A DNA stretch of 64,000 nt from a virus (taxonomy: Duplodnaviria > Heunggongvirae > Uroviricota > Caudoviricetes), in IMG/VR virus record IMGVR_UViG_3300042891_002161. One strand, given 5' to 3'. A program made the position numbers and the translations under genes. Below the pieces are notes generated by a model that worked only from the letters and a program-made list of their open reading frames with translations, did no database searches and was not told the origin of the DNA. Below, piece after piece: positions 400-9,167 of the stretch (the stretch's first letter is position 1; every line of letters starts with the position of its first letter).

Positions 400-888
400 T
401 CATTTGAAATCTTCGTTGCTTCTATAATTACCTAAATTGATTGTATCAAATTCATCCATACCATCTTTACTTTTAATACCCATCTTTTTTAATACAGTAT
501 TTATAGGTCTTTCTGACCAATCATATTCGCTAGATTTATCATACTCTTTCTTATTATTTACAAATAATTTGGCTTCTTGGTGACCAGAACCACCAAAGTA
601 ATCAGTTGATATACTAGCGATAGTTTTATTTTTACCAAAGGCTCTTACATTAGGAATATGAGTAGTGGTTAAAATACCTTCTGGTAATTCAGTCCATTTT
701 ATTTCTTCGGAATTTTCTTTATTCTCTAAGACAGAGTTAATCTTTTCATTTCTTAACTCTGACTTATTCATTAAATATACGCTTATACAGTGTCCCATAA
801 TTTTGACAAAGATAAAATATAAAAGCCATTTGACAAAATAATATATAGAGTATATAAAAAAAATTATTATAGATGAGTATAATTTCAC
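400..888 (-). CDS. hypothetical protein
   Basis: 162-aa ORF. The first 30-40 residues are hydrophobic low-complexity and overlap the 5' end of the divergent gene at 873. The true start is probably an internal Met near 798 or 771. Confidence 0.4.
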   Translation of the reverse strand: MKLYSSIIIFFIYSIYYFVKWLLYFIFVKIMGHCISVYLMNKSELRNEKINSVLENKENSEEIKWTELPEGILTTTHIPNVRAFGKNKTIASISTDYFGGSGHQEAKLFVNNKKEYDKSSEYDWSERPINTVLKKMGIKSKDGMDEFDTINLGNYRSNEDFK

Positions 889-2531
889 TTTCTACTTTCA
901 CAGATATGTCTGGAGCAGCTACTCCATCATCCGGTATTTTAATAGGTTTAGACACATTAGACGGAAAACTTAAACAAAAAGATTCTTCTGGAGTCGTTAC
1001 TGAAATTGGCTCTGGTGCTGGTTCAGGATCAGCCGGTTCATCGGGTACATCAGGCTCGTCAGGCACATCAGGCTCGTCAGGCACAAGTGGTCTTGCTGGA
1101 TCAGCTGGACCAAGTGGATCAGATAGCGGTAACTCATTAAAATGGATATATGGTAATAGGACTATTAACGGTGAATTTGTATTAGGTAGTAATGACTTTA
1201 CACAATTAAATAATCAAGTTTTCATGAATAATTTTAGTCAAGTTGGTGACTCATCATCTTGGTTAGAATCCCTATCTGATTATAATATCTTATTTCCTGG
1301 TGCTACTTATATAAAAATATCAGAGTTAGTAAATCCTAACATATATGGTATTTATCAAATTACTGGTAATAATGATGATAGTCCATCAGTTTATAGAGGG
1401 TATGATATTACTAAGATTTCAGCTAATGGTACACCCACTGACGGTCTTGAATATTCAATCAGTTGGATTATAATGGGTCAAAATGGATCAAGTGGAACAT
1501 CAGGATCAAGTGGAACATCAGGTACATCGGGAATTAGTGGATCATCAGGTACTTCAGGAACTAGTGGATCATCGGGTACTTCAGGAGTGAATGGATCTTT
1601 CTTTGGTTCATCAGGAACTTCAGGAATTAGTGGATCATCAGGAACTTCAGGAATTAGTGGAACATCAGGATCATCAGGAACATCAGGAGTTGATGGATCA
1701 GGAACATCAGGAACATCAGGAATTAGTGGATCTTCAGGTACTTCAGGAGTTGATGGATCAGGAACATCAGGAACATCAGGAATTAGTGGATCTTCAGGTA
1801 CTTCAGGAGTTGATGGATCAGGAACATCAGGTACTTCAGGAGTTGATGGATCAGGAACATCAGGAACTTCAGGAGTTAATGGATCAGGAACATCAGGAAC
1901 TTCAGGAGTTAATGGATCGGGCACTTCAGGAACATCAGGAATTAGTGGATCATCAGGTACTTCAGGAGTTAATGGATCGGGCACTTCAGGAACATCAGGA
2001 ATTAGTGGATCATCAGGTACTTCAGGAGTTGATGGATCAGGAACATCAGGTACTTCAGGAGTTAATGGATCAGGAACATCAGGAACTTCAGGAGTTAATG
2101 GATCGGGCACTTCAGGAACATCAGGAATTAGTGGATCATCAGGTACTTCAGGAGTTGATGGATCAGGAACATCAGGTACTTCAGGTGTTAATGGATCTTC
2201 CGGAACTTCAGGTGTTGCCGGATCTTCTGGAACTTCAGGTGTTGCTGGATCTTCTGGAACTTCAGGTGTTAATGGATATACCGGAACTTCAGGTGTTGCC
2301 GGAACTTCTGGAACATCTGGAGTTGATGGTGTTAGTCCAATGGCTTTAACAGCGGGTGGATTTGCGGCTCTATGGGGTTTACCAGGAGGAGGTGAAGATT
2401 GTGTTATAGATGGTGTTGCTGGAACTTGGCAATTCTCAGCAGATCCAGGAGTAGGTGGTGTGGAAGGCGCTACATATTCATGTTTTGGACTTAGAATTTG
2501 TTGTGTGCCTAATAACTTCGGTGAGTCGTAA
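873..2531 (+). CDS. collagen-like Gly-X-Y repeat protein (putative fibre/fibril)
   Basis: 552 aa. There are two collagenous segments of uninterrupted G-S/T-S/T triplets (about 45 and about 83 triplets) with X-Y = SS/TS/IS/VD/VN and no proline. A roughly 110-aa globular domain lies between them. The C-terminal domain is Cys-containing and non-collagenous ([12 protein letters not shown]...[10 protein letters not shown]). Confidence 0.85.
1480..2340 (+). repeat. near-identical tandem nucleotide repeats (about 60-nt units) inside the collagen-like gene
   Basis: Units such as gttgatggatcaggaacatcaggaacatcaggaattagtggatcttcaggtacttcagga recur exactly at 1690-1760, 1760-1830, 1900-1970, 1960-2030 and so on. 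Confidence 0.8.
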
Positions 2532-2704: not shown

Positions 2705-3535
2705 TTAAATATTCTTTGACTTAAAATAGTTTATAGCTATATCTAATTCAGTTTTATCTTTAATACCATGATATATCATTATATCAGAAGAATTTTCACA
2801 TTTCATATTTGAATTACCAAAGATGCCCATATTATAAGCATCACCAACAATGCTTTCATTTTCTTCAATATGTATTAAAGGCTCGGCTTGAATTGTATTA
2901 AGATAAACTCTATTTAGATTTTGTGTTATTCCTCTTTTCCAAAGAATAATGTTTAATGGTGTTTCATCTTTAAACGGGTAATATTTACGAACATCTTGTA
3001 AAAGATAATTATTGTCACATATAGATTCCCATTCTTTGAAAACATCTGAACACTTATCATTAAAACTAAAAACACAAGTATAAACATAGTTCATACTTCT
3101 TGAATTAACACCAAAGTAATTCATAAGAGGCTCTTCATTGCTAAAATCAATATACTCACCATTTTGGTCTTGACCGTTGCATAAAAATGGATAGTCCCAA
3201 TTACCATATGGAAATAAAGGAAAATCTAAATCATTATTAAGTCTTGATACAGTGAATCTTTTACCAATTAAAATATCTGTATCTACAAATAAAAATTGAC
3301 CACCAAATTTAGAGATAGCATCCAACATAATAGTTGGCTTATAAAACTCAAAAAATCTTTTATTATTATTCCTTTGATAAACTACCTTAGTTAGATTTGG
3401 ATAATCTAATGATGATTCAAACCCAATTGTATAGTATATCATTTGAACCTCATCTTTAACATTTAAAATAATAGATTCAATTAAAGCCTTTGCTTGATAT
3501 TCATAATTTGCGTCTGAAAAAAAAATTATATTCAT
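2705..3535 (-). CDS. putative glycosyltransferase (GT8 / nucleotide-diphospho-sugar transferase-like, DxD)
   Basis: The N-terminus MNIIFFSDANYEYQAKALIESI resembles the GT8 N-terminus. A candidate DxD motif sits in FLFVDTDILIG. Confidence 0.4.
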   Translation of the reverse strand: MNIIFFSDANYEYQAKALIESIILNVKDEVQMIYYTIGFESSLDYPNLTKVVYQRNNNKRFFEFYKPTIMLDAISKFGGQFLFVDTDILIGKRFTVSRLNNDLDFPLFPYGNWDYPFLCNGQDQNGEYIDFSNEEPLMNYFGVNSRSMNYVYTCVFSFNDKCSDVFKEWESICDNNYLLQDVRKYYPFKDETPLNIILWKRGITQNLNRVYLNTIQAEPLIHIEENESIVGDAYNMGIFGNSNMKCENSSDIMIYHGIKDKTELDIAINYFKSKNI

Positions 3536-3542
3536 GTTTTAT

Positions 3543-4160
3543 TTATTTTTTTACATACCAAGATCCTAACCATTCACTAGTTACTCTTAATTCATATCCA
3601 TTTTTTTCACAAAACTCATCTACTGCTGGATTAACACCAAAAACACCCATATAAGTACCATCAGTTCCCCATATAAATTTATCTTTATTATTATCAGAAT
3701 AGTTTGGATCATCATACCAATCAAGACCAAGATAATCATGACCACATATAAATCCACCTTTTTTAACTTTAGGATACCAAAGTTCTATATCCTGAACAAC
3801 ATAATCATAAGCGTGATTAGCATCAATATAAACAAAATCTAATGAATTATCATTAAACATATCAGCGGCTATTTCTGAAGTAGCTCTAACCATTATAGCT
3901 CTATCTTCAAAGCCTTTAATATTCTCCATAGCGTCAGTGTAAACGCCACCATCATATCTACCGTGATTGCTAGAATCATCATAGCCAGATTCTAGTGGTC
4001 TCCAAACGTCTACCATATATAAAGTACCTGACCAGTTGTTCATTATTTGATTTGAGAAGTTGCCTTTGAATGTACCAACCTCAACTCCTTTTCCTTTTGG
4101 AAATTCTTGACCAATATTTCTTATTAGTTCAACTCTTGTTATATTTTCTTTAATCATCAA
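3543..4160 (-). CDS. class I SAM-dependent methyltransferase (TylF/FkbM/MycF-like O-methyltransferase fold)
   Basis: Contains a G-x-G motif (GVEVGTFKG), LDFVYIDANHAYDYV and GGFICGHDY, typical of the Methyltransf_24 family. Confidence 0.6.
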   Translation of the reverse strand: MMIKENITRVELIRNIGQEFPKGKGVEVGTFKGNFSNQIMNNWSGTLYMVDVWRPLESGYDDSSNHGRYDGGVYTDAMENIKGFEDRAIMVRATSEIAADMFNDNSLDFVYIDANHAYDYVVQDIELWYPKVKKGGFICGHDYLGLDWYDDPNYSDNNKDKFIWGTDGTYMGVFGVNPAVDEFCEKNGYELRVTSEWLGSWYVKK

Positions 4161-4188
4161 TTATTATATTGATAAATTAAAGATAGGT

Positions 4189-4500
4189 TTAAATAATTAT
4201 ACCGTTTAATATATTTTCTGATAAAGAAGTAATAAATCTCTCAATTAATTCAATTTCCTCATCTAAATTTCCATCAGTTCTGAATTGTCTAAATGATCCA
4301 GTGTCTAAAAATCTCATAGTATATTCACCTCTATTTGGAAATATAGTAAAGCAGAATCTTGTTCTACCTGAATTAGAAGCTTGTGCCCAGATTCTTCTAT
4401 AGTCTGGGGACAATCTTTCCATTAATAAGTCTTGTAACAACATCAATGTTGTTTCAAATGATGTTCCTCTTCTTGCGTGATATGAATAAATTTCTTCCAT
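4189..4500 (-). CDS. hypothetical protein
   Basis: The ORF track extends it to 4596, across tRNA-Ser. A likely true start is MEEIYSYHARRG near 4500. Confidence 0.35.
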   Translation of the reverse strand: MEEIYSYHARRGTSFETTLMLLQDLLMERLSPDYRRIWAQASNSGRTRFCFTIFPNRGEYTMRFLDTGSFRQFRTDGNLDEEIELIERFITSLSENILNGIII

Positions 4501-4514
4501 AATTTTTAATTTTT

Positions 4515-4602
4515 GCGGAGAGTGAGGGATTCGAACCCTCGGTACCCTTTCAGGTACACACGCTTTCCAAGCGTGCTCCATAAACCACTCGGACAACTCT
4601 CC
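4515..4602 (-). tRNA. tRNA-Ser (anticodon GGA), type II
   Basis: Acceptor GGAGAGT/ACTCTCC. Anticodon arm CACGC-TTGGAAA-GCGTG. Long variable arm. T-arm GAGGGTTCGAATCCCTC. Discriminator G. CCA is not encoded. Confidence 0.8.
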
Positions 4603-4612
4603 AGTTATCTTT

Positions 4613-4699
4613 GCGGAGAGCAGAGTATTCGAAACTCACACATTTTATTGTGCCACTCGCTTAGCAGGCGGTGCTAGTACCCTGACTAGTTTACTCTCC
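4613..4699 (-). tRNA. type II tRNA, Ser-like (possible anticodon GCU; imperfect anticodon stem)
   Basis: Same GGAGAGT acceptor, GTTCGAATACTC T-arm and roughly 87-nt length. The candidate anticodon loop CTGCTAA has only a 3-bp stem in my fold, so it could be a pseudo-tRNA. Confidence 0.5.
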
Positions 4700-4704
4700 A
4701 TTAG

Positions 4705-4787
4705 CGGAAGAAGAGGGAATCGAACCCCCAAAGCCTTACGACCCAGCCGCTTTCAAGGCGGTGTCCTCGTCCATTCGGACTCCTTCC
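4705..4787 (-). tRNA. tRNA-Ser (anticodon UGA), type II
   Basis: Acceptor GGAAGGA/TTCTTCC. Anticodon loop CTTGAAA. T-arm GGGGGTTCGATTCCCTC. Discriminator G. Confidence 0.65.
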
Positions 4788-4792
4788 GGTTG

Positions 4793-4876
4793 CGGAGAGG
4801 TGAGGTATCGATCCCCATACCTTTCGGTACGACTAGTTTTCAAGACTAGCTTTAGCGCCAGCTAAATTACCTCTCC
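4793..4876 (-). tRNA. type II tRNA, Ser-like (anticodon loop CTTGAAA = UGA), with an unusual T-loop
   Basis: Acceptor GGAGAGG/CCTCTCC. Anticodon arm CTAGT-CTTGAAA-ACTAG. Discriminator G. The T-loop ATCGATA is non-canonical. The 5' half overlaps the HNH remnant frame. Confidence 0.55.
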
Positions 4877-5069
4877 TTTCATTAAAGTGATGTATTCTAT
4901 GACAATTTGAACATAAAACAATACACTTTTCTATTTCTTCTAATATCCTATCTTTGTTACAAGATTTTATAATATTTGATACTTCTGATTCTTTTTTACC
5001 AATATGATGAAAATCTAAAGCGGCTGGATGTGAAAATCCACATTCTTGGCATTTTAGAGAACTTTGAAA
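4833..5069 (-). pseudogene. HNH endonuclease domain remnant (no start codon; 3' end reads into a tRNA)
   Basis: The frame translates FQSSLKCQECGFSHPAALDFHHIGKKESEVSNIIKSCNKDRILEEIEKCIVLCSNCHRIHHFNERRGNLAGAK..., a full C-x2-C...HH...N...C-x2-C-H-x2-H HNH core. An in-frame TAA lies immediately upstream and there is no ATG. It lies between tRNA-Arg and the tRNA-Ser block. Confidence 0.55.
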
Positions 5070-5093
5070 TTAAAAATATGTTCGTATCACTTG

Positions 5094-5166
5094 TAGTCCC
5101 AGAAGGATTCGAACCTTCATTTTTGGTTTCGTAGACCAATGTCCTGTCCAGTTGAACGATGGAACC
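5094..5166 (-). tRNA. tRNA-Arg (anticodon ACG)
   Basis: Acceptor GGTTCCA/TGGGACT (with G-U pairs). Anticodon arm TTGGT-CTACGAA-ACCAA. T-arm GAAGGTTCGAATCCTTC. Discriminator A. Confidence 0.75.
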
Positions 5167-5170
5167 ATAT

Positions 5171-5215
5171 AAAAACAAAAAACCCTTCAAACTTGAGTTC
5201 GAAGGGTTTCTTTAA
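5171..5215. terminator. rho-independent, bidirectional-type hairpin
   Basis: A-run, then the inverted repeat ACCCTTCaaacttgagttcGAAGGGT, then TTTCTTT. It lies downstream of the minus-strand gene at 5370-5972. Confidence 0.6.
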
Positions 5216-5263
5216 TATCTTTTTTACTTGACTATTATGAACACGATCGAACCTCACTCATTT

Positions 5264-5291
5264 TTGACGAGCGACTTGACGATTTTGACGA
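5264..5291. promoter_or_regulatory. three direct TTGACGA repeats in the 5' region of the minus-strand gene cluster
   Basis: TTGACGA at 5264-5270, 5276-5282 and 5285-5291, within about 100 nt downstream of the stop of gene 5370-5972. Confidence 0.25.
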
Positions 5292-5369
5292 TGTGTAAAT
5301 AATTGTTTTCATAATCTTATTGTATATATTACAAATGTAATCTTTGTTTTTGTTATTTCCTAATTTTTT

Positions 5370-5972
5370 TTATACTAAATCTTCAGCATCAGCTGGAAGA
5401 GTTATTCTAACAAGTTGTCTTTTAACATCTTCTTCTAATGGTAAAGACTCGTGAATGAATGTTGAATTACCCCAATATAAAGTATTACTCTTTAAGTTGA
5501 AGTTTTCCATTTTAGAAAGATCTAAATGTGAACAATCTCCACCTTGGTTTGGTTGACCTTCATAATCACCATTCCAACCTTTACAAGCTTCATAAGAAGA
5601 AACAATTAACATTCCACCTTTTTCAGAACAATATTGTTCTTCGTGTTTATCTCTTGGTAAAAATCTACCATCTTCTCCAGTTAACCAGCCGCTTCCGCCG
5701 CCACCCCATCCAAATAGATAGTTTCCATCAGTATGTGGTCCACCTCTTCTATGAGATTCACCTTTACTAACAATTTTTTCATCAATTGTTAAATATGCTT
5801 TACCTGTTTTCTTAGGTGAGCAATCAACAATCTCTTTAAGAACAGATTCCCATCTTTCATAACCTATTGGTAAAGTAGGATTCTCCATATCGAATTCGTG
5901 CATATAAACTCTATCACCTCTGTATTCTGGAAGAGATATCGGTTTAATCATTTTTGATTTACTTTTTAACAT
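5370..5972 (-). CDS. hypothetical protein, possible 2OG-Fe(II) oxygenase-like fold
   Basis: Candidate HxD (GGPHTDGNY) and a distal His (NSTFIHESLP) about 95 residues apart. The assignment is weak. Confidence 0.3.
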   Translation of the reverse strand: MLKSKSKMIKPISLPEYRGDRVYMHEFDMENPTLPIGYERWESVLKEIVDCSPKKTGKAYLTIDEKIVSKGESHRRGGPHTDGNYLFGWGGGGSGWLTGEDGRFLPRDKHEEQYCSEKGGMLIVSSYEACKGWNGDYEGQPNQGGDCSHLDLSKMENFNLKSNTLYWGNSTFIHESLPLEEDVKRQLVRITLPADAEDLV

Positions 5973-5988
5973 AATGTTATTTAATTTT

Positions 5989-6171
5989 TTAGTAGTTATC
6001 GTAGAAGTAATCTTTAAGATCTTTTTCTCCGTAACCTTTTTCTCTTAGGACTTTATACATTTCATAAGATGATTTGTTCTTTTTATTAGTATCAATAAAA
6101 TCTTCAATTTCATCTTTTTTAGAAACTTTTTCGCCTTTTACCTTTTCATTAAATTTTTGTAAATGTTTCAT
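5989..6171 (-). CDS. small Lys/Glu-rich hypothetical protein
   Basis: 60-aa ORF with a TAATATATAC-type motif upstream on the minus strand. Confidence 0.4.
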   Translation of the reverse strand: MKHLQKFNEKVKGEKVSKKDEIEDFIDTNKKNKSSYEMYKVLREKGYGEKDLKDYFYDNY

Positions 6172-6221
6172 TTTTTAATCTTTGATTTTATGTATATATT
6201 AAAATCAATATTTATATTTTG

Positions 6222-6350
6222 TGGGGATGGTTGGATTCGAACCAACGACCTTATAATTTCAAAATATACGAAGTAACTCTCTCAATCAACACTCTTTACG
6301 AGGTAAAATTTCAAAAGAGATAGTTTTCTCTACCACTGAGCTACATCCCC
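6222..6350 (-). tRNA. tRNA-like gene with a ~55-nt insertion (intron-like or disrupted; isotype unresolved)
   Basis: The 5' end GGGGATGTAGCTCAGTGGTAGAG and the 3' end AGGTCGTTGGTTCGAATCCAACCATCCCCA are canonical. The middle holds about 55 extra nt with a duplicated TTTTGAAATT segment (candidate anticodon loop: GAA or UGA). Confidence 0.45.
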
Positions 6351-6413
6351 AAATGAATTTATTACGTTACTTGAAAAGTGCCAAGTCGATAAAATTCTAA
6401 ACGGTCTCATAAC

Positions 6414-6558
6414 TAGGGAGAGAGGCAGGGCTCGAACCTGCGACCACGGATTTAAAAGATCGAAGTAACTCTTAACATCACTACTAATATTGATAATCAA
6501 TATCAGAGAATCCTTGTCAGAGTAATTGCGTGCTCTACCAACTGAGCTACTCTCTCCA
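6414..6558 (-). tRNA. tRNA-like gene with a ~70-nt structured insertion (His-like G-1/C73 architecture; isotype unresolved)
   Basis: The 5' end G-GAGAGAG-TA-GCTCAGTTGGTAGAGC and the 3' end GTGGTCGCAGGTTCGAGCCCTGC-CTCTCTC-C are canonical. The central insertion contains nested perfect hairpins (ATATTGAT/ATCAATAT; ACTCT/AGAGT). Confidence 0.45.
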
Positions 6559-6567
6559 TATTATTTG

Positions 6568-6650
6568 TGATTCCGGTGGGACTCGAACCCACGGTGGACT
6601 TTCATCGACAGATTAAGAGTCTGTTGCAATCGCCGCTATGCGACGGAATC
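6568..6650 (-). tRNA. atypical tRNA: Lys-type anticodon loop (CUU) on a type II-like scaffold
   Basis: Acceptor GATTCCG/CGGAATC. Anticodon arm ACAGA-CTCTTAA-TCTGT. D-loop contains AGCGGC. About 15 nt lie between the anticodon stem and the T-stem. T-arm GTGGGTTCGAGTCCCAC. Discriminator A. Confidence 0.5.
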
Positions 6651-6657
6651 ATTTTTG

Positions 6658-6740
6658 TGCGTCTGGTGGGACTCGAACCCACGGTTGAAATTAATCGACT
6701 GGTTAAAAGCCAGCTGCTATAGCCACTAAGCGACAGACGC
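6658..6740 (-). tRNA. atypical tRNA: anticodon UUU on a type II-like scaffold (paralogue of 6568 and 6750)
   Basis: Acceptor GCGTCTG/CAGACGC. Anticodon arm GCTGG-CTTTTAA-CCAGT. A 15-nt variable region. Identical T-arm GTGGGTTCGAGTCCCAC. Discriminator A. Confidence 0.5.
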
Positions 6741-6749
6741 AATACTTAG

Positions 6750-6834
6750 TGATCCTGGTGGGACTCGAACCCACGGTTGAGAATTAACTCTACTGGTTAA
6801 AAGCCAGTTGCTATAGCCGCTAAGCGACAGGATC
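6750..6834 (-). tRNA. atypical tRNA: anticodon UUU on a type II-like scaffold
   Basis: Acceptor GATCCTG/CAGGATC. Anticodon arm ACTGG-CTTTTAA-CCAGT. Variable region AGAGTTAATTCTCAACC forms a GAG/CTC hairpin. Same T-arm as 6568 and 6658. Confidence 0.5.
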
Positions 6835-6847
6835 ATTTGTATTTTAG

Positions 6848-6920
6848 TGATCCCGGTGGGGTTTGAACCCACAACCTTCCGATTAAAAGTCGGAAGCTCC
6901 ACCAATTGAGCTACGGAATC
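6848..6920 (-). tRNA. tRNA-Lys (anticodon UUU), canonical type I
   Basis: GATTCCG-TA-GCTCAATTGGTGGAGC-T-TCCGA-CTTTTAA-TCGGA-AGGTT-GTGGGTTCAAACCCCAC-CGGGATC-A. Confidence 0.85.
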
Positions 6921-6934
6921 ATTGTCTTTTTGAG

Positions 6935-6960
6935 GGCAACGATCCGTATGAATCGTTGCC
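6935..6960. other. 9-bp stem hairpin in a tRNA spacer (possible processing or termination signal)
   Basis: GGCAACGAT-ccgtatga-ATCGTTGCC. Confidence 0.3.
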
Positions 6961-7007
6961 TAGCGTTTATATTTCAATTTTGTTTTCATTTCTTTTAATT
7001 TATTTTA

Positions 7008-7079
7008 GCACGCCATTGAGGAATTGAACCCCACCGTCGAGGTTTTGGAGACCTGACCGACACCTTGTCTGTATGACGT
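7008..7079 (-). tRNA. tRNA-Trp (anticodon CCA)
   Basis: Acceptor ACGTCAT/ATGGCGT. Anticodon arm AGGT-CTCCAAA-ACCT. T-arm TGGGGTTCAATTCCTCA. Discriminator G. Confidence 0.65.
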
Positions 7080-7091
7080 ATTTTATTTTAG

Positions 7092-7173
7092 CACAGGTAA
7101 AGAGACTCGAACTCTTAGCCACTCTTACGAATTACCGGGTTGGAGCCGGCTGGTCACACCAATGAGTACCTGT
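7092..7173 (-). tRNA. atypical tRNA with candidate anticodon loop CTCCAAC (CCA) and an extended (~17-nt) variable region
   Basis: Acceptor ACAGGTA/TACCTGT is perfect. Anticodon arm GCCGG-CTCCAAC-CCGGT. T-arm AAGAGTTCGAGTCTCTT. The identity is uncertain. Confidence 0.4.
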
Positions 7174-7179
7174 ATGTTG

Positions 7180-7251
7180 TGGAGACTGACGGAATCGAAC
7201 CGACCTCTTCCGGGCTTCAACCGGACGCTAAACCAACTTAGCTAAGTCTCC
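7180..7251 (-). tRNA. tRNA-Phe (anticodon GAA)
   Basis: Acceptor GGAGACT/AGTCTCC. Anticodon arm TCCGG-TTGAAGC-CCGGA. T-loop TTCGATT. Discriminator A. Confidence 0.75.
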
Positions 7252-7254
7252 TTT

Positions 7255-7331
7255 TGGGTGAATGACGGGTTACGATCCCGCTACCTCTGGTACCACAAAC
7301 CAGCGCTCTACCGATTGAGCTACATTCACCA
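7255..7331 (-). tRNA. tRNA-His (anticodon GUG) with encoded G-1 and 3' CCA
   Basis: G-GTGAATG-TA-GCTCAATCGGTAGAGC-G-CTGGT-TTGTGGT-ACCAG-AGGTA-GCGGGATCGTAACCCGT-CATTCAC-C-CA. Confidence 0.85.
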
Positions 7332-7484
7332 TAATACCCCACTTCATCAGATTACCGGACTGACTGCCATATGGGAGTGGGGGTCTCCTGTTTATCTCAG
7401 GACTCCGTGGAACCTCCCGGTAACGATCCGGGCTCCCTGGATTTTCAGTCCAGTGCTTTCACCTGATTAGCTTAGGTTCCAATT
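7332..7484 (-). ncRNA. unassigned GC-rich (about 50% GC) structured spacer between the two His tRNAs
   Basis: Local GC is far above the 28-30% background. Hairpins include CCCGG-atcgtta-CCGGG and TCCTG-agataaa-CAGGA, and a CTGATGA element is present. No tRNA cloverleaf could be drawn. Confidence 0.3.
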
Positions 7485-7572
7485 TGGGTGTCGTACGGGA
7501 TTTGAACCCGTCCCCTAACTTTCACAGAGTTAGATGCTCGTCCGAAGACTCACCGCTGACAATAACGACACC
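7485..7572 (-). tRNA. second tRNA-His-like gene (GUG) with a ~12-nt hairpin insertion in the D region
   Basis: G-GTGTCGT acceptor pairing with ACGACAC, C73 and CA. Anticodon arm TAACT-CTGTGAA-AGTTA. T-arm ACGGGTTCAAATCCCGT. An extra GTC-TTCG-GAC tetraloop hairpin sits in the D region. Confidence 0.5.
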
Positions 7573-7579
7573 ATATAAA

Positions 7580-7618
7580 ACAAAAAAGTCCGAACTTTTT
7601 TGAAGTTCGGACTTTTGA
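7580..7618. terminator. bidirectional rho-independent terminator
   Basis: Perfect 12-bp inverted repeat AAGTCCGAACTT/AAGTTCGGACTT, flanked by an A-run and a T-run. Confidence 0.65.
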
Positions 7619-7835
7619 AATATTGTTCTTTATATAAATAGACTTGTTACATCTTATTTGAGAGCAATACACTTTCAGTACCGAACTGGTTGCTAAACCA
7701 CTTATTCGATTTACTAAAATGTTTATGTGTATTATTTGTTCTCATTGTAATTATATATTAAAAAGTTTTTGTTCCTTTTGTTGTTTTTGTTCTTATTTTA
7801 TACAAATATAGATAAAAGTTTTAAATCTACCTAAT

Positions 7836-8177
7836 TTATTTTAAAATATTTTTTATTTTTTCATTTCTTCCTACCATTTTATAGACTGATACTGTCTTTG
7901 AACCAAATCTTTTTTTAGACTTACCAGAATACTGGTATTCTTCGTTTGGTTCCATTTTAACAGAAATATATCTAACACTTAGATATCCGTCTGTTGTCAA
8001 ATCGGATAGGTGATTTGATATAACTTTATCATCATAACCAAACCAATAATGGTCGTGTTTTGATTTTTTGATTTGTTTAATTAAAGATTCAGTTGTAAAT
8101 TCAACTTCTGTCTCTAAAAAATTTGCTCTTAGGTAATTAACAACATCGTGTTTTTCCCATTGCCATAATGATTTCAT
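7836..8177 (-). CDS. hypothetical protein
   Basis: 113-aa ORF with no recognisable motif. Confidence 0.5.
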   Translation of the reverse strand: MKSLWQWEKHDVVNYLRANFLETEVEFTTESLIKQIKKSKHDHYWFGYDDKVISNHLSDLTTDGYLSVRYISVKMEPNEEYQYSGKSKKRFGSKTVSVYKMVGRNEKIKNILK

Positions 8178-8315
8178 AATTTCCTTTTTTAATTTTTAAG
8201 GAAATTTCTAACGTGAATTTCAATAACGGCTCCACTGACTATTTACAGTTATCAGTTCTGTTTTGTTATACAAATATAAGATGGATTTTTTAATCCACCA
8301 AATTATTTTTAATTT

Positions 8316-8528
8316 TTATCCTCCGTAGGCAGAAGTTATATAACCACCCTTAACTCTAAAGTTAATTCTATTAGATTTAACTTCCATAGTAAGCATTTTA
8401 GATTGACCATCAACCTCAACAACTCTTACTTCAAATCCACCATCATTAGCATATTGTGTTGCTTCTTCTAATGATTTTCCTAAATATTCTCTTTCGGTAA
8501 TCATACCATTATCTCTTAAATAAGCCAT
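8316..8528 (-). CDS. hypothetical protein
   Basis: 70-aa ORF. Confidence 0.45.
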   Translation of the reverse strand: MAYLRDNGMITEREYLGKSLEEATQYANDGGFEVRVVEVDGQSKMLTMEVKSNRINFRVKGGYITSAYGG

Positions 8529-8627
8529 AATTTATTTTTCTTTTTATATAATAAAATTAGTAATTTGTTTTTTTATAAAATTGCAAACATGATTTTTAAT
8601 ATATACACTAAAATATAAAACTACAAA

Positions 8628-9167
8628 ATGGATTTAAATAATTATTTAAGAAAAGACTATGCTACCCCATCCACATATTATGGATATTCAAGTGACTCAA
8701 ATGCTGCTTCTACAGATTTTAATTGGTCTATTAGAAAGGTAACAACATCTGGTAATGTTGAAACTGTTACTTGGACTAATGGTGATCCTGGAAAACCATT
8801 TGCTAAATGGAATGATAGAGTTAACTCATTCGCAACACCAACTGGTTCATTAGGTCTTACATGTAGTAAAGGAACTCAAATAGGAAATAATGTACCATTA
8901 AATATCACTTGGAACCAATTATCTGGTGTTAATAGATATCAAGTAGTTGTTTCAAAAAATAGTATAGTTTACTCAGATTTGGGATCTCAAATTTATTATA
9001 ATCCAAACACAAATCAAATTACTAAAGAGATAGTAAATGATGGTATTTATATTTATAATTTTGCTGAGTCAACTAATGGTCTTTCACCAAGTAATATTTA
9101 CTCTATTACAGTAACAGCTGTTAATGTTGCTGGATCTTCAGCATCAACTGTTACTATTACTACTTAA
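8628..9167 (+). CDS. Ig/FN3-like beta-sandwich protein (possible capsid decoration or adhesin)
   Basis: C-terminal YSITVTAVNVAGSSASTVTITT, Thr/Ser-rich strands and a WTNGDPG motif. A TAATATATAC motif lies about 21 nt upstream. Confidence 0.45.
   Translation: MDLNNYLRKDYATPSTYYGYSSDSNAASTDFNWSIRKVTTSGNVETVTWTNGDPGKPFAKWNDRVNSFATPTGSLGLTCSKGTQIGNNVPLNITWNQLSGVNRYQVVVSKNSIVYSDLGSQIYYNPNTNQITKEIVNDGIYIYNFAESTNGLSPSNIYSITVTAVNVAGSSASTVTITT

What the first reader, a model, noticed from the sequence alone, without database searches (positions are those of the whole stretch)
6222..6558. Two adjacent tRNA genes each interrupted by a 55-70-nt structured insertion
Both genes have canonical acceptor, D and T arms but carry central insertions. 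In 6222-6350 the insertion duplicates the anticodon-loop segment TTTTGAAATT. In 6414-6558 the insertion folds into nested perfect hairpins. Bacterial and phage tRNA introns are normally group I (over 200 nt), so these are either very small introns, relics of insertion or recombination, or pseudo-tRNAs. The second gene also shows the G-1/C73 His-like architecture.
Basis: seen in the sequence. Interest (0 to 1): 0.65.

Follow-up and report, generated by a model that had tools for sequence, protein, structure and literature searches.

The report
tRNA-shaped Y RNAs, not introns
The two "interrupted tRNA genes" are real, but the insert is a conserved RNA module that many phages encode next to the gene for the RNA-binding protein Ro60, so they are most likely tRNA-shaped Ro60 partner RNAs (Y RNAs) of an undescribed layout rather than tRNAs with tiny introns.

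Summary
On the minus strand, 6557-6417 (A) and 6350-6222 (B) have normal acceptor, D and T arms and carry 67- and 57-nt structured inserts in or just before the 5' strand of the anticodon stem.

The inserts are not random. Both end in GAGTTACTTCG. That motif is part of a ~55-70-nt module found in hundreds of phage contigs. It has helix P1, a pyrimidine block, a variable hairpin, a purine block and then GTTACTTCG.

Elsewhere the same module is split around a tRNA-like core with a closed acceptor stem. That is the architecture of YrlA-type Y RNAs. There it sits beside a Ro60/TROVE gene: 123 of 177 instances lie within 1.5 kb, all on the same strand.

A covariance model built from 23 interrupted units of other phages scores A at 104 bits and B at 88 bits. 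Ordinary tRNAs in the window score at most 31 bits.

A near-identical A/B cassette lies on a 134.6-kb contig that also encodes Ro60. A minimal Y RNA upstream of that gene carries the same module strand. Cultured phage crAss001 has an unannotated unit 274 nt after its TROVE gene.

Best reading (0.6): A and B are stable tRNA-Y RNA chimeras. Splicing is not excluded (0.17). This is a new variant of a known kind.

The parts
6417..6557 (-). Unit A: a tRNA-Lys-like body carrying a Y-RNA module. It has an 8-bp acceptor stem with G-1 (6557) paired to C73 (6417).
   Evidence: Rfam tRNA 42.7 bits with an 80-nt insertion. Family model R1 104.2 bits, E 4.6e-23, full length. Fold, coordinates.
6462..6528 (-). 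A insert (67 nt), the Y-RNA-type module, placed between anticodon-stem nt 28 and 29
   Evidence: Sub-parts: P1 5' strand ACTCTGACA 6523-6515; pyrimidine block 6514-6507; apical hairpin 6506-6484; purine block TAGTGA 6483-6478; P1 3' strand TGTTAAGAGT 6477-6468; conserved tail TTACTTCG 6468-6461. The apical hairpin carries compensatory changes in L415. The 3' strand TAGTAGTGATGTTAAGAGTTACTTCG closely resembles the Ro60-adjacent Y RNA of the related contig, CCAGTAGTGAATTAGAGAGTTACTTCG.
6447..6461 (-). A anticodon-like hairpin: G29-A-T / CTTTTAA / ATCCG, a UUU (Lys-type) loop. The 5-bp stem is completed by C27-G28 (6530-6529) from the D-arm side.
   Evidence: The 2+3 composite stem, U33 and purine 37 are family traits. 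In L415 this hairpin is swapped for an Asn-type GUU hairpin while the rest of the unit is nearly identical.
6222..6350 (-). Unit B: a tRNA-like body (acceptor GGGGATG/CATCCCC, A73) carrying a Y-RNA module
   Evidence: Rfam tRNA 45.2 bits with a 70-nt insertion. R1 88.1 bits, E 3.5e-19. Coordinates.
6269..6325 (-). B insert (57 nt), the Y-RNA-type module, placed between nt 26 and the anticodon-like hairpin
   Evidence: Sub-parts: P1 CTCTTTT 6319-6313 paired with GAGAGAG 6283-6277; inner ACCTCGTAAAGAGTGTTGA 6304-6286; tail TTACTTCG 6276-6269. Nearly the same module occurs in L123, L377, L396 and L436.
6252..6268 (-). B anticodon-like hairpin TATAT/TTTGAAA/TTATA, with a UGA loop and a T-T mismatch at 31-39
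   Evidence: It contains the second copy of TTTTGAAATT (6264-6255). The first copy is 6316-6307, inside the module.
6351..6416 (-). 66-nt spacer between A and B (role unknown)
   Evidence: It differs from the L415 spacer by a single substitution, while the DNA outside the cassette diverges. It holds a sigma-70-like pair TTGGCA-17-TAAATT at 6384-6356, but such matches are no more frequent here than in shuffles.

Best explanation
A and B are non-coding tRNA-Y RNA chimeras. Each has a complete tRNA-shaped body: open acceptor stem, D arm, T arm and usually an authentic-looking anticodon hairpin. Into or just before the 5' strand of its anticodon stem is grafted the conserved stem-loop module that serves in related phages as the Ro60-binding stem of their Y RNAs.

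The RNA is probably cut out of the tRNA array by the ordinary tRNA end-processing enzymes and stays about 130-145 nt long. The module projects as a fifth arm from a three-way junction and binds the phage Ro60, which in this lineage is encoded elsewhere in the genome. The tRNA part acts as the effector or mimic domain, as in bacterial YrlA. It would tether Ro60, and whatever nuclease or repair enzyme Ro60 works with, to a factor that recognises a particular tRNA, here a Lys-UUU-type anticodon arm in A.

Shown: homology of the inserts to the Ro60-linked module, the covarying helices, the tRNA fold across the insert, and the presence of Ro60 in the lineage.

Inferred: Ro60 binding, absence of splicing, and the tether or decoy role.
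For: 1. Both inserts end in GAGTTACTTCG. The motif precedes T arms in over 200 distinct phage contexts.
2. Upstream of the motif, at fixed spacing, sits a purine block R-R-T-R-S-H-R.
3. Of 177 module-plus-T-arm instances in 100 loci fetched by DNA pattern alone, 135 have a Ro60 gene in the stretch. 123 lie within 1.5 kb, and all 123 are on the same strand. The L151 neighbour is TROVE plus vWA_Ro60. Only 141 of 50,697 phage records hold a Ro60 match.
4. In permuted units the module halves flank a T arm, a closed acceptor and a D arm. The Rfam YrlA model aligns to that core at 35 bits.
5. Leader and trailer pair specifically. Cognate duplexes average -21.9 kcal/mol against -14.4 for non-cognate pairs.
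6. P1 is fully paired (7 of 7) in 53 of 95 units, against 6.9% of non-cognate pairings, with many pair types.
7. In 23 interrupted units from other contigs, all seven acceptor pairs formed across the insert show compensatory changes and none is broken.
8. Model R1 scores A at 104.2 bits and B at 88.1 bits, against 30.6 or less for the ordinary tRNAs of the window.
9. Interrupted units sit 111-732 nt from Ro60 in L106 (two), L157 (two), L216, L364, L403, L429 and L426. In crAss001 a unit sits 274 nt after the TROVE gene and scores 90 bits.
10. The contig with the near-identical A/B cassette (L415) also encodes Ro60 (L468). A minimal Y RNA upstream of that gene carries the same module strand. 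The nearest huge phage, LR745206.1, does likewise.
11. Against splicing: L157a and L429 have no anticodon loop. Permuted homologues have acceptors sealed by 3-4-nt loops, including a UUCG tetraloop with no discriminator base. The attachment point varies among 26/27, 28/29, 29/30, 31/32, before the T arm, and at the acceptor ends.
12. The phage already has four other tRNA-Lys genes.
Against: - No Ro60 gene is detectable in the 64-kb window itself.
- Ro60 binding to this module has never been tested. The motif differs from the GNCGAAN0-1G / CGAA motif reported for bacterial and Thermus-phage Y RNAs.
- Rfam YrlA and Y_RNA do not match A, B or the minimal Y RNAs of the lineage.
- 63 of 90 units keep a 7-nt anticodon-like loop on a 5-bp stem that is reconstituted exactly across the junction. 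U33 is present in 59 of 63 and purine 37 in 62 of 63, and the anticodons are diverse. This is also what a spliceable tRNA would look like.
- Open acceptor ends and placement inside a tRNA array suit a real tRNA.
- There are no expression data.
Confidence: 0.6

Rival explanations
1. Protein-dependent intron. The module is excised by an endonuclease, the halves are joined by an RtcB-type ligase, possibly with Ro60 holding the precursor, and functional tRNAs result (Lys-UUU from A). In permuted genes the same reaction would give circular intermediates that RNase P then opens.
For: Removing the insert restores a canonical 5-bp anticodon stem, a 7-nt loop with U33 and R37, and a 5-nt V loop in most units. 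Acceptor ends are open and the genes lie in a tRNA array. Between the window and L415 the anticodon arm is swapped Lys to Asn while the body is kept, as if decoding identity mattered. In Salmonella, rsr and the Y RNA genes share an operon with rtcB (own knowledge; the operon is the subject of the paper listed).
Against: Some homologues lack an anticodon loop or have acceptors capped by tetraloops. Junction positions and junction nucleotides vary. No bulge-helix-bulge forms. No RNA ligase was found among the ten neighbour proteins scanned in three Ro60 loci. C73 with G-1 does not fit Lys or Asn identity (own knowledge of identity rules). Lys-UUU is already encoded three more times.
Confidence: 0.17
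2. A new small self-cleaving or self-splicing ribozyme whose 3' boundary is GTTACTTC|G. It would release tRNA 5' ends or tRNA halves without any protein.
For: There is a strongly conserved, apparently unpaired 9-mer exactly at the boundary with tRNA segments, in front of whole tRNAs, anticodon hairpins or T arms. The element is small and structured with a conserved internal loop.
Against: No known ribozyme family matches at E up to 10. The motif is co-oriented with and adjacent to Ro60 in 123 of 123 nearby cases, which points to a protein partner. The module halves form the terminal stem of discrete Y-RNA-like units. Nothing suggests a catalytic core.
Confidence: 0.06
3. Dead tRNA genes: pseudo-tRNAs disrupted by insertion of, or recombination with, a mobile Y-RNA-like sequence, with no function now.
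For: B has a G10-A25 and a T31-T39 mismatch and a 10-nt internal duplication. ARAGORN rejects both. The whole-molecule fold of B is not better than its shuffles.
Against: The same architecture recurs in about 27 non-redundant units of unrelated phages, with intact and covarying acceptor and T stems and a covarying P1. The cassette is almost invariant between two phages whose flanks have diverged, and its changes are compensatory or confined to the anticodon hairpin.
Confidence: 0.06
4. Classical tRNA introns: group I self-splicing, or archaeal/eukaryal bulge-helix-bulge type.
For: The position is inside a tRNA gene. Phages and cyanobacteria do carry group I introns in tRNA genes (own knowledge).
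Against: At 57-67 nt the inserts are far shorter than group I introns of over 200 nt. There is no Intron_gpI hit at E up to 10. The insert is in the anticodon stem, not the loop. No 3-4-3 bulge-helix-bulge can be drawn at the junctions (inspection).
Confidence: 0.01

Closest known systems
YrlA-type bacterial and phage Y RNAs (Rfam RF02553; Chen et al. 2014, PMC4201824; Wang et al. 2018, bioRxiv 10.1101/312249)
   Same: Both are Ro60-linked non-coding RNAs made of a Ro60-binding stem module plus a tRNA-like domain with conserved D and T arms. The permuted relatives of A and B have exactly this topology, sit next to Ro60 and are co-oriented with it. Their core aligns to RF02553.
   Different: In A and B the acceptor stem is open and the Ro60-type module is closed by a hairpin. 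This is the circular permutation of YrlA, and it looks like an intron-containing tRNA gene. A canonical anticodon-like hairpin is present, whereas Salmonella YrlA lacks an anticodon loop. The conserved strand is RRTRSHR...GTTACTTCG, not GNCGAAN0-1G. A and B do not reach RF02553's threshold. They lie in a tRNA array, with no Ro60 gene in the 64-kb window.
Deinococcus radiodurans Yrn1
   Same: It is a Y RNA whose tRNA-like part is attached in the other orientation and contains an anticodon-arm-like stem-loop. This resembles the units here in which a whole tRNA forms the loop of the module (L013, L061, L065, csAssE-Sib).
   Different: Yrn1 still has its 5' and 3' ends in the Ro60-binding stem. 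A and B have theirs in the acceptor stem.
Permuted and split tRNA genes (Cyanidioschyzon merolae permuted tRNAs; Nanoarchaeum equitans split tRNAs) and bulge-helix-bulge introns (own knowledge)
   Same: tRNA segments occur in normal, permuted or interrupted order, flanked by complementary sequences that pair. Junctions lie at non-canonical positions in the anticodon stem and before the T arm.
   Different: Those systems rely on a bulge-helix-bulge motif and the archaeal/eukaryal splicing endonuclease. No such motif forms here, the hosts are bacterial, and the flanking module is sequence-conserved and tied to Ro60.
Group I introns in bacterial and phage tRNA genes
   Same: Both are insertions within the anticodon arm of a tRNA gene in a bacterial or phage genome.
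   Different: Group I introns are over 200 nt with a P1-P9 core and lie in the anticodon loop. The inserts here are 57-67 nt, lie in or before the anticodon stem, and have no model match.

Membership tests
tRNA (RF00005) | Cloverleaf with acceptor, D and T arms scoring above the family threshold | tested here: met
   A scores 42.7 bits and B 45.2 bits against a gathering score of 29, full model length. The acceptor and T stems covary across the insert in 23 homologues.
tRNA (RF00005) | Continuous anticodon stem-loop, about 76 nt or with a long variable arm, recognised by tRNA finders | tested here: not met
   There are 67- and 57-nt insertions between nt 28/29 (A) and 26/27 (B). ARAGORN calls neither.
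Group I intron | Over 200 nt with a conserved P1-P9 core | tested here: not met
   The inserts are 57-67 nt. No Intron_gpI match at E up to 1 over 3500-9000 or at E up to 10 over 6200-6580.
Bulge-helix-bulge tRNA intron | Two 3-nt bulges separated by a 4-bp helix at the exon-intron junctions | tested here: not met
   Neither the predicted folds nor inspection of the junction sequences gives a 3-4-3 motif. The junction is a three-way junction inside the anticodon stem.
Bulge-helix-bulge tRNA intron | A splicing endonuclease is present in the host or virus | not testable with these tools
   The host is unknown and only 64 kb of the genome is available.
Known self-cleaving ribozymes (hammerhead, HDV-like, twister, pistol, hatchet, hairpin) | Match to the family covariance model | tested here: not met
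   No such family at E up to 10 in 6200-6580 or at E up to 1 in 3500-9000.
YrlA Y RNA (RF02553) | tRNA-like domain with conserved D and T arms | tested here: met
   The Rfam YrlA model aligns to the T arm, acceptor and D arm core of permuted relatives at 35 bits.
YrlA Y RNA (RF02553) | Score at or above the Rfam gathering score (69 bits) | tested here: not met
   Only a 23.9-bit local hit spans the D arm of A and the T arm of the neighbouring tRNA. No hit at E up to 10. Permuted relatives reach 35 bits.
YrlA Y RNA (RF02553) | The 5' and 3' ends pair to form the Ro60-binding stem, and the acceptor-like stem is closed with no free CCA end | tested here: not met
   In A and B the ends lie in the acceptor stem and the module is closed by a hairpin. 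The feature is met in the permuted relatives.
YrlA Y RNA (RF02553) | Encoded within about 4 kb of a Ro60 gene and on the same strand (criterion of Chen et al. 2014) | tested here: not met
   No Ro60 in the 64-kb window by tblastn. The lineage does have Ro60: the contig carrying the A/B cassette encodes it and so does LR745206.1. Other interrupted units lie 111-732 nt from Ro60.
YrlA Y RNA (RF02553) | GNCGAAN0-1G motif near the 5' end | tested here: not met
   The motif is absent from both inserts on reading the sequence. The conserved strand here is RRTRSHR...GTTACTTCG.
Y RNA in the functional sense (RNA bound by Ro60) | Physical binding to Ro60 | not testable with these tools
   Inferred only from genomic linkage and from the module shared with Ro60-adjacent minimal Y RNAs.
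Phage Ro60-linked GTTACTTCG module family (defined here) | Purine block at fixed spacing followed by GTTACTTCG, helix P1 ending right before TTACTTCG, and a full-length match to model R1 | tested here: met
   R1 gives 104.2 and 88.1 bits, with the window and L415 excluded from the model.

The most novel reading that the evidence does not exclude
The Ro60-linked module may be a new kind of bacterial-virus tRNA intervening sequence. It occurs in linear (A, B), circularly permuted and whole-tRNA-flanking arrangements. Under this reading Ro60 binds it and holds the precursor while an endonuclease and an RtcB-type ligase excise it. The products would be functional, possibly nuclease-resistant or conditionally produced tRNAs such as Lys-UUU and Asn-GUU, plus a free Y RNA. 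That would be a protein-guided tRNA splicing and permutation system in phages, analogous to the split and permuted tRNAs of archaea and red algae.
Probability: 0.15. Interest if true: 0.9.

Novelty: new variant of a known kind. Interest (0 to 1): 0.6.

Why it matters
- Annotation. These units are missed by ARAGORN, or would be filed as intron-containing or pseudo-tRNAs. Even cultured crAss001 carries unannotated ones next to its early TROVE gene. In another gut phage, whole tRNAs embedded in the module are annotated simply as tRNA-Tyr and tRNA-Lys.

- Extension of the Y RNA class. Bacterial Y RNAs were defined with a closed acceptor stem, and Salmonella YrlA has no anticodon loop. Here the same building blocks appear with open tRNA ends, authentic anticodon loops (U33 and R37 in about 95%) and swappable anticodon arms, and they can lie far from Ro60 inside tRNA arrays.

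- Possible function. This ties phage Ro60 particles directly to specific tRNA identities. In this phage that identity is Lys, and the phage also carries three odd long-armed tRNA-Lys genes. That is what one would expect if the system deals with host anticodon nucleases or with tRNA repair.

- Origin. It suggests how YrlA-type RNAs could arise from tRNA genes by insertion of a module followed by permutation.

- Testability. The question of stable chimera versus spliced tRNA can be tested in a cultivable system.

Tried and rejected
- Target-site duplication by a mobile element. Removing one copy of TTTTGAAATT plus the intervening DNA from B does not restore a tRNA of correct length. A has no such repeat.

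- Hammerhead or other known ribozyme. There is a CTGATA-like string in A but no GAAA core, and no Rfam ribozyme hit.

- Phage promoter ending at the tRNA +1. I considered this because the motif abuts whole tRNAs. I rejected it because the motif pairs in covarying helices with a partner strand on the far side of the tRNA part and is tied to Ro60.

- First collection scan (AGAGTTACTTCG N2-6 TTT). It returned mostly chance hits. It became useful only after filtering for a nearby T loop.

- RNAalifold on the MAFFT alignment. It recovered only the tRNA arms. The module had to be analysed by anchoring on the motif.

- Search for an RNA ligase or RtcB next to Ro60. Ten neighbour proteins in three loci gave none. 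They were a DnaB-like helicase, a portal protein, gp32, UDG, NADAR and an intein-containing protein. No systematic search was made.

- Rfam Y_RNA and YrlA against the lineage's minimal Y RNAs gave no hit. A resemblance I recalled from memory between the purine block plus GTTAC and human Y RNA 5' strands (GGUAGUGAGUUAUC) is therefore unsupported.

- The closest huge-phage records (LR745206, LR756502) share the neighbouring tRNAs but have no A or B homologue at that place.

- Literature searches found no description of open-acceptor or interrupted-tRNA Y RNAs. Two reviews were not held in the library.
Full report
**1. The observation**

The window is AT-rich (about 29% GC). It carries a tRNA array on the minus strand between about 4500 and 7600. 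Its nearest records are uncultured huge phages of 635 and 642 kb, LR745206.1 and LR756502.1.

Read on the minus strand, the two flagged stretches are tRNA-shaped genes.

- Unit A runs 6557-6417. It consists of G-1, acceptor GAGAGAG, TA, D arm GCTC-AGTTGGTA-GAGC, then A-C-G, a 67-nt insert (6528-6462), the hairpin GAT/CTTTTAA/ATCCG, V loop TGGTC, T arm GCAGG-TTCGAGC-CCTGC, acceptor 3' strand CTCTCTC and C73.
- Unit B runs 6350-6222. It consists of GGGGATG, TA, GCTC-AGTGGTA-GAGA, A, a 57-nt insert (6325-6269), the hairpin TATAT/TTTGAAA/TTATA, AGGTC, GTTGG-TTCGAAT-CCAAC, CATCCCC and A73.

ARAGORN does not call either. With relaxed filters the Rfam tRNA model spans both from end to end, treating the inserts as 80- and 70-nt insertions. 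The scores are 42.7 and 45.2 bits against a threshold of 29.

RNAfold gives A an 8-bp acceptor stem (G-1:C73), the D and T arms and a nested double hairpin in the insert, with z -3.17. B as a whole is not significant, z -1.27.

The 10-nt duplication in B is real and modestly unlikely, reached by 23 of 3000 dinucleotide shuffles. The inserts are not variable arms: they lie between the D arm and the anticodon hairpin.

**2.

Both inserts end in the same 11-mer, GAGTTACTTCG. These are its only two exact copies in 64 kb.

They yielded more than 200 distinct contexts in which the motif directly precedes one of the following:

- a whole tRNA;
- an anticodon-like hairpin followed by a V loop, a T arm, an acceptor stem closed by a short loop and a D arm;
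- a T arm alone.

Aligned on the motif, a purine block (R-R-T-R-S-H-R, for example GGTGGCG, AGTAGTA, GATGCAG) sits at fixed spacing about 18 nt upstream. After the D arm of the permuted units comes the partner strand: a linker (often AAAAT), a strand complementary to the 7-9 nt just before TTACTTCG, and a pyrimidine block (TTTCCC or TTCTCC).

**3. It is the Y-RNA module of a phage Ro60 system**

The gene next to these units in L151 encodes a TROVE plus Ro60-vWA protein.

I counted among loci fetched purely by DNA pattern. Of 177 non-redundant module-plus-T-arm instances in 100 loci, 135 have a Ro60 gene in the fetched stretch. 123 lie within 1.5 kb of it, and all 123 are on the same strand. 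By contrast, one Ro60 query finds matches in only 141 of 50,697 phage records.

The permuted units have the architecture that defines YrlA Y RNAs:

- The 5' and 3' flanks pair with each other. Cognate duplexes average -21.9 kcal/mol against -14.4 for non-cognate ones, and 44% of cognates rank in the best 5% of partners.
- The flanks enclose a tRNA-like T arm, closed acceptor and D arm core. Rfam's YrlA model aligns to this core, although at 35 bits against a threshold of 69.

Helix P1 of the module ends exactly before TTACTTCG. It is fully paired in 53 of 95 units, against 6.9% of non-cognate combinations, with several pair types at most positions. Independent MFE folds of isolated inserts give the same architecture.

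**4. A and B belong to an "interrupted" subclass of this family**

About 27 non-redundant units in other phage contigs have the layout of the window. They have an open acceptor stem and a D arm. The module is closed by a variable hairpin. Then come an anticodon-like hairpin, a V loop, a T arm and the acceptor 3' strand.

In an alignment of 23 of them, all seven acceptor pairs show compensatory changes and none is broken, although these pairs are formed across the insert.

A covariance model was built from those 23, with the window and its close relative left out. It scores A at 104.2 bits (E 4.6e-23) and B at 88.1 bits (E 3.5e-19), both over the full model. The ordinary tRNAs of the window reach at most 30.6 bits.

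Interrupted units lie 111-732 nt from Ro60 in L106 (two in a row), L157 (two in a row), L216, L364, L403, L429 and L426. Cultured Bacteroides phage crAss001 has an unannotated unit 274 nt downstream of its TROVE gene gp96 (90 bits), plus further module-bearing RNAs. gp96 is an early gene.

**5. The lineage of this window has Ro60**

The window itself shows no Ro60 by tblastn.

Contig IMGVR_UViG_3300032312_001770 (134.6 kb) carries an A/B cassette almost identical to the window's, including the spacer. The same contig encodes a Ro60 that is 82% identical to that of LR745206.1.

Directly upstream of that gene lies a minimal Y RNA whose 5' strand is CCAGTAGTGAATTAGAGAGTTACTTCG. Compare TAGTAGTGATGTTAAGAGTTACTTCG in the insert of A. 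LR745206.1 has the same arrangement.

The two cassettes differ in only three places:

- the 5' linker of A's module;
- its apical hairpin, by compensatory changes;
- the anticodon-like hairpin, where CGGAT/CTTTTAA/ATCCG (Lys-type) is replaced by CGCGG/CTGTTAA/CCGCG (Asn-type).

**6. Chimera or intron?**

For a spliceable tRNA:

- In 63 of 90 units a 5-bp stem with a 7-nt loop is reconstituted across the junction, typically from 2 nt on the D-arm side plus 3 nt next to the motif.
- U33 is present in 59 of 63 and a purine at position 37 in 62 of 63. The anticodons are diverse, with GUU and UUU the most common.

Against:

- L157a and L429 have no anticodon loop at all.
- Permuted homologues have acceptors capped by 3-4-nt loops, including a C(UUCG)G cap with no discriminator base.
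- The attachment point varies: 26/27 in B, 28/29 in A, also 29/30, 31/32, before the T arm, and at the acceptor ends.
- The junction nucleotides are not conserved, and no bulge-helix-bulge forms.
- No group I or ribozyme model matches.
- C73 with G-1 does not fit Lys or Asn identity (own knowledge).
- The phage already has four tRNA-Lys genes.

The simplest account covering both open and closed forms is a function that needs tRNA shape and an authentic anticodon loop but not aminoacylation. That means a Y RNA whose effector domain mimics a specific tRNA, with the Ro60-binding module projecting from a three-way junction in the anticodon stem.

What the mimic engages is speculation. Candidates are an anticodon nuclease, a modification or repair enzyme, or a synthetase. 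The Lys-type arm, together with three unusual tRNA-Lys genes next door, makes a link to anticodon-nuclease defence attractive.

**7. Comparison with what is known, and novelty**

Y RNAs with tRNA-like domains next to Ro60 are known in bacteria and phages. Two features are described for them. The RNA ends form the Ro60-binding stem. The acceptor-like stem is closed, and Salmonella YrlA lacks an anticodon loop.

A and B invert this. The ends are in the acceptor stem, the module is closed, an anticodon-like hairpin is present, and the genes sit in a tRNA array with no Ro60 gene in the window. The module's conserved strand differs from the published GNCGAA motif, and no Rfam family matches it.

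I found no description of this layout in the searchable literature. Two reviews could not be read.

I therefore rate it a new variant of a known kind. It works like a YrlA-type Y RNA, but it fails several formal YrlA membership criteria.

**8. Limits**

- Ro60 binding, RNA size in vivo and function are all inferred. There are no expression data.
- The classification scripts use simple pairing rules, and some units were mis-sorted before manual review.
- The Ro60 census depends on a single tblastn query and on flanks of limited length.

Noticed in passing
window 6567-6650, 6657-6740, 6749-6834 (minus strand): Three tRNAs of 83-86 nt have class-II shape (long variable arm, 3-bp D stem) but Lys anticodons CUU, UUU and UUU. 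A normal tRNA-Lys lies next to them at 6847-6920. They score 56-62 bits with the Rfam tRNA model and are conserved in LR745206.1 and LR756502.1. Long-armed tRNAs with Lys anticodons are unusual. They may be nuclease-resistant variants or mischarging tRNAs.
   Followed up: partly
window 7092-7174, ~7010-7085, 7487-7572, 4706-4787, 4790-4870, 4625-4700 (minus strand): ARAGORN misses further tRNA-like sequences here. Two have CCA (Trp) anticodon loops with extra arms. Several are Ser-like with odd D or T regions. Some appear only as weak tRNA-Sec hits of 27-37 bits.
   Followed up: no
window 7340-7405 (minus strand), directly 3' of tRNA-Phe 7407-7480: This is a structured spacer, GGAGTCCTGAGATAAACAGGAGACCCCCACTCC...CTGATGAAGTGGGG. 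It could be a small processing element or ribozyme. No Rfam match at E up to 1.
   Followed up: no
window 6447-6461 versus L415 (IMGVR_UViG_3300032312_001770): Between two otherwise near-identical A/B cassettes, the anticodon-like hairpin of A is exchanged wholesale, from Lys UUU to Asn GUU. The Asn version is identical to that of the B-like units in L123 and L396, which suggests arm swapping by recombination among paralogues.
   Followed up: partly
L460 (Bacteroides phage crAss001, NC_049977.1) 4500-5100, about record 96200-96790: At least three unannotated module-bearing RNAs follow the TROVE gene gp96. One is a minimal module (GTATAGTGTATAATAGACTTACTTCA). One is an interrupted tRNA-like unit (4693-4836). 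One is a unit without a D arm (4948-5086) whose acceptor and T arm (GGGGATG...GTTGGTTCGAGTCCAACCATCCCCA) match those of window B.
   Followed up: partly
L461 (phage csAssE-Sib, OR575929.1) 2486-2900: The genes annotated tRNA-Tyr and tRNA-Lys just upstream of the 'Ro sixty-related protein' are whole tRNAs embedded as the loop of the module, with GTTACTTCG abutting their 5' ends and a pairing trailer. A permuted unit precedes them.
   Followed up: partly
5' flanks of interrupted units, e.g. window 6558-6561: Most A-type interrupted units in unrelated phages share the 5' flank (A/T)TATG. Its G pairs with C73, giving an 8-bp acceptor stem like that of tRNA-His. Several also have an AUG (His-codon-reading) anticodon loop (L157b, L444, L454, L230). 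The meaning is unknown.
   Followed up: no
L079, L139, L212, L347, L065/L110: Another subclass has only an acceptor 5' strand plus a short A-rich stretch and no D arm. This is followed by the module, a long hairpin, a T arm and the acceptor 3' strand.
   Followed up: no
window 873-2531 (plus strand): A 552-aa ORF consists largely of SGTSG(V/I)(D/N)G repeats, possibly a collagen-like fibre protein. Overlapping repeat-derived ORFs lie in other frames.
   Followed up: no
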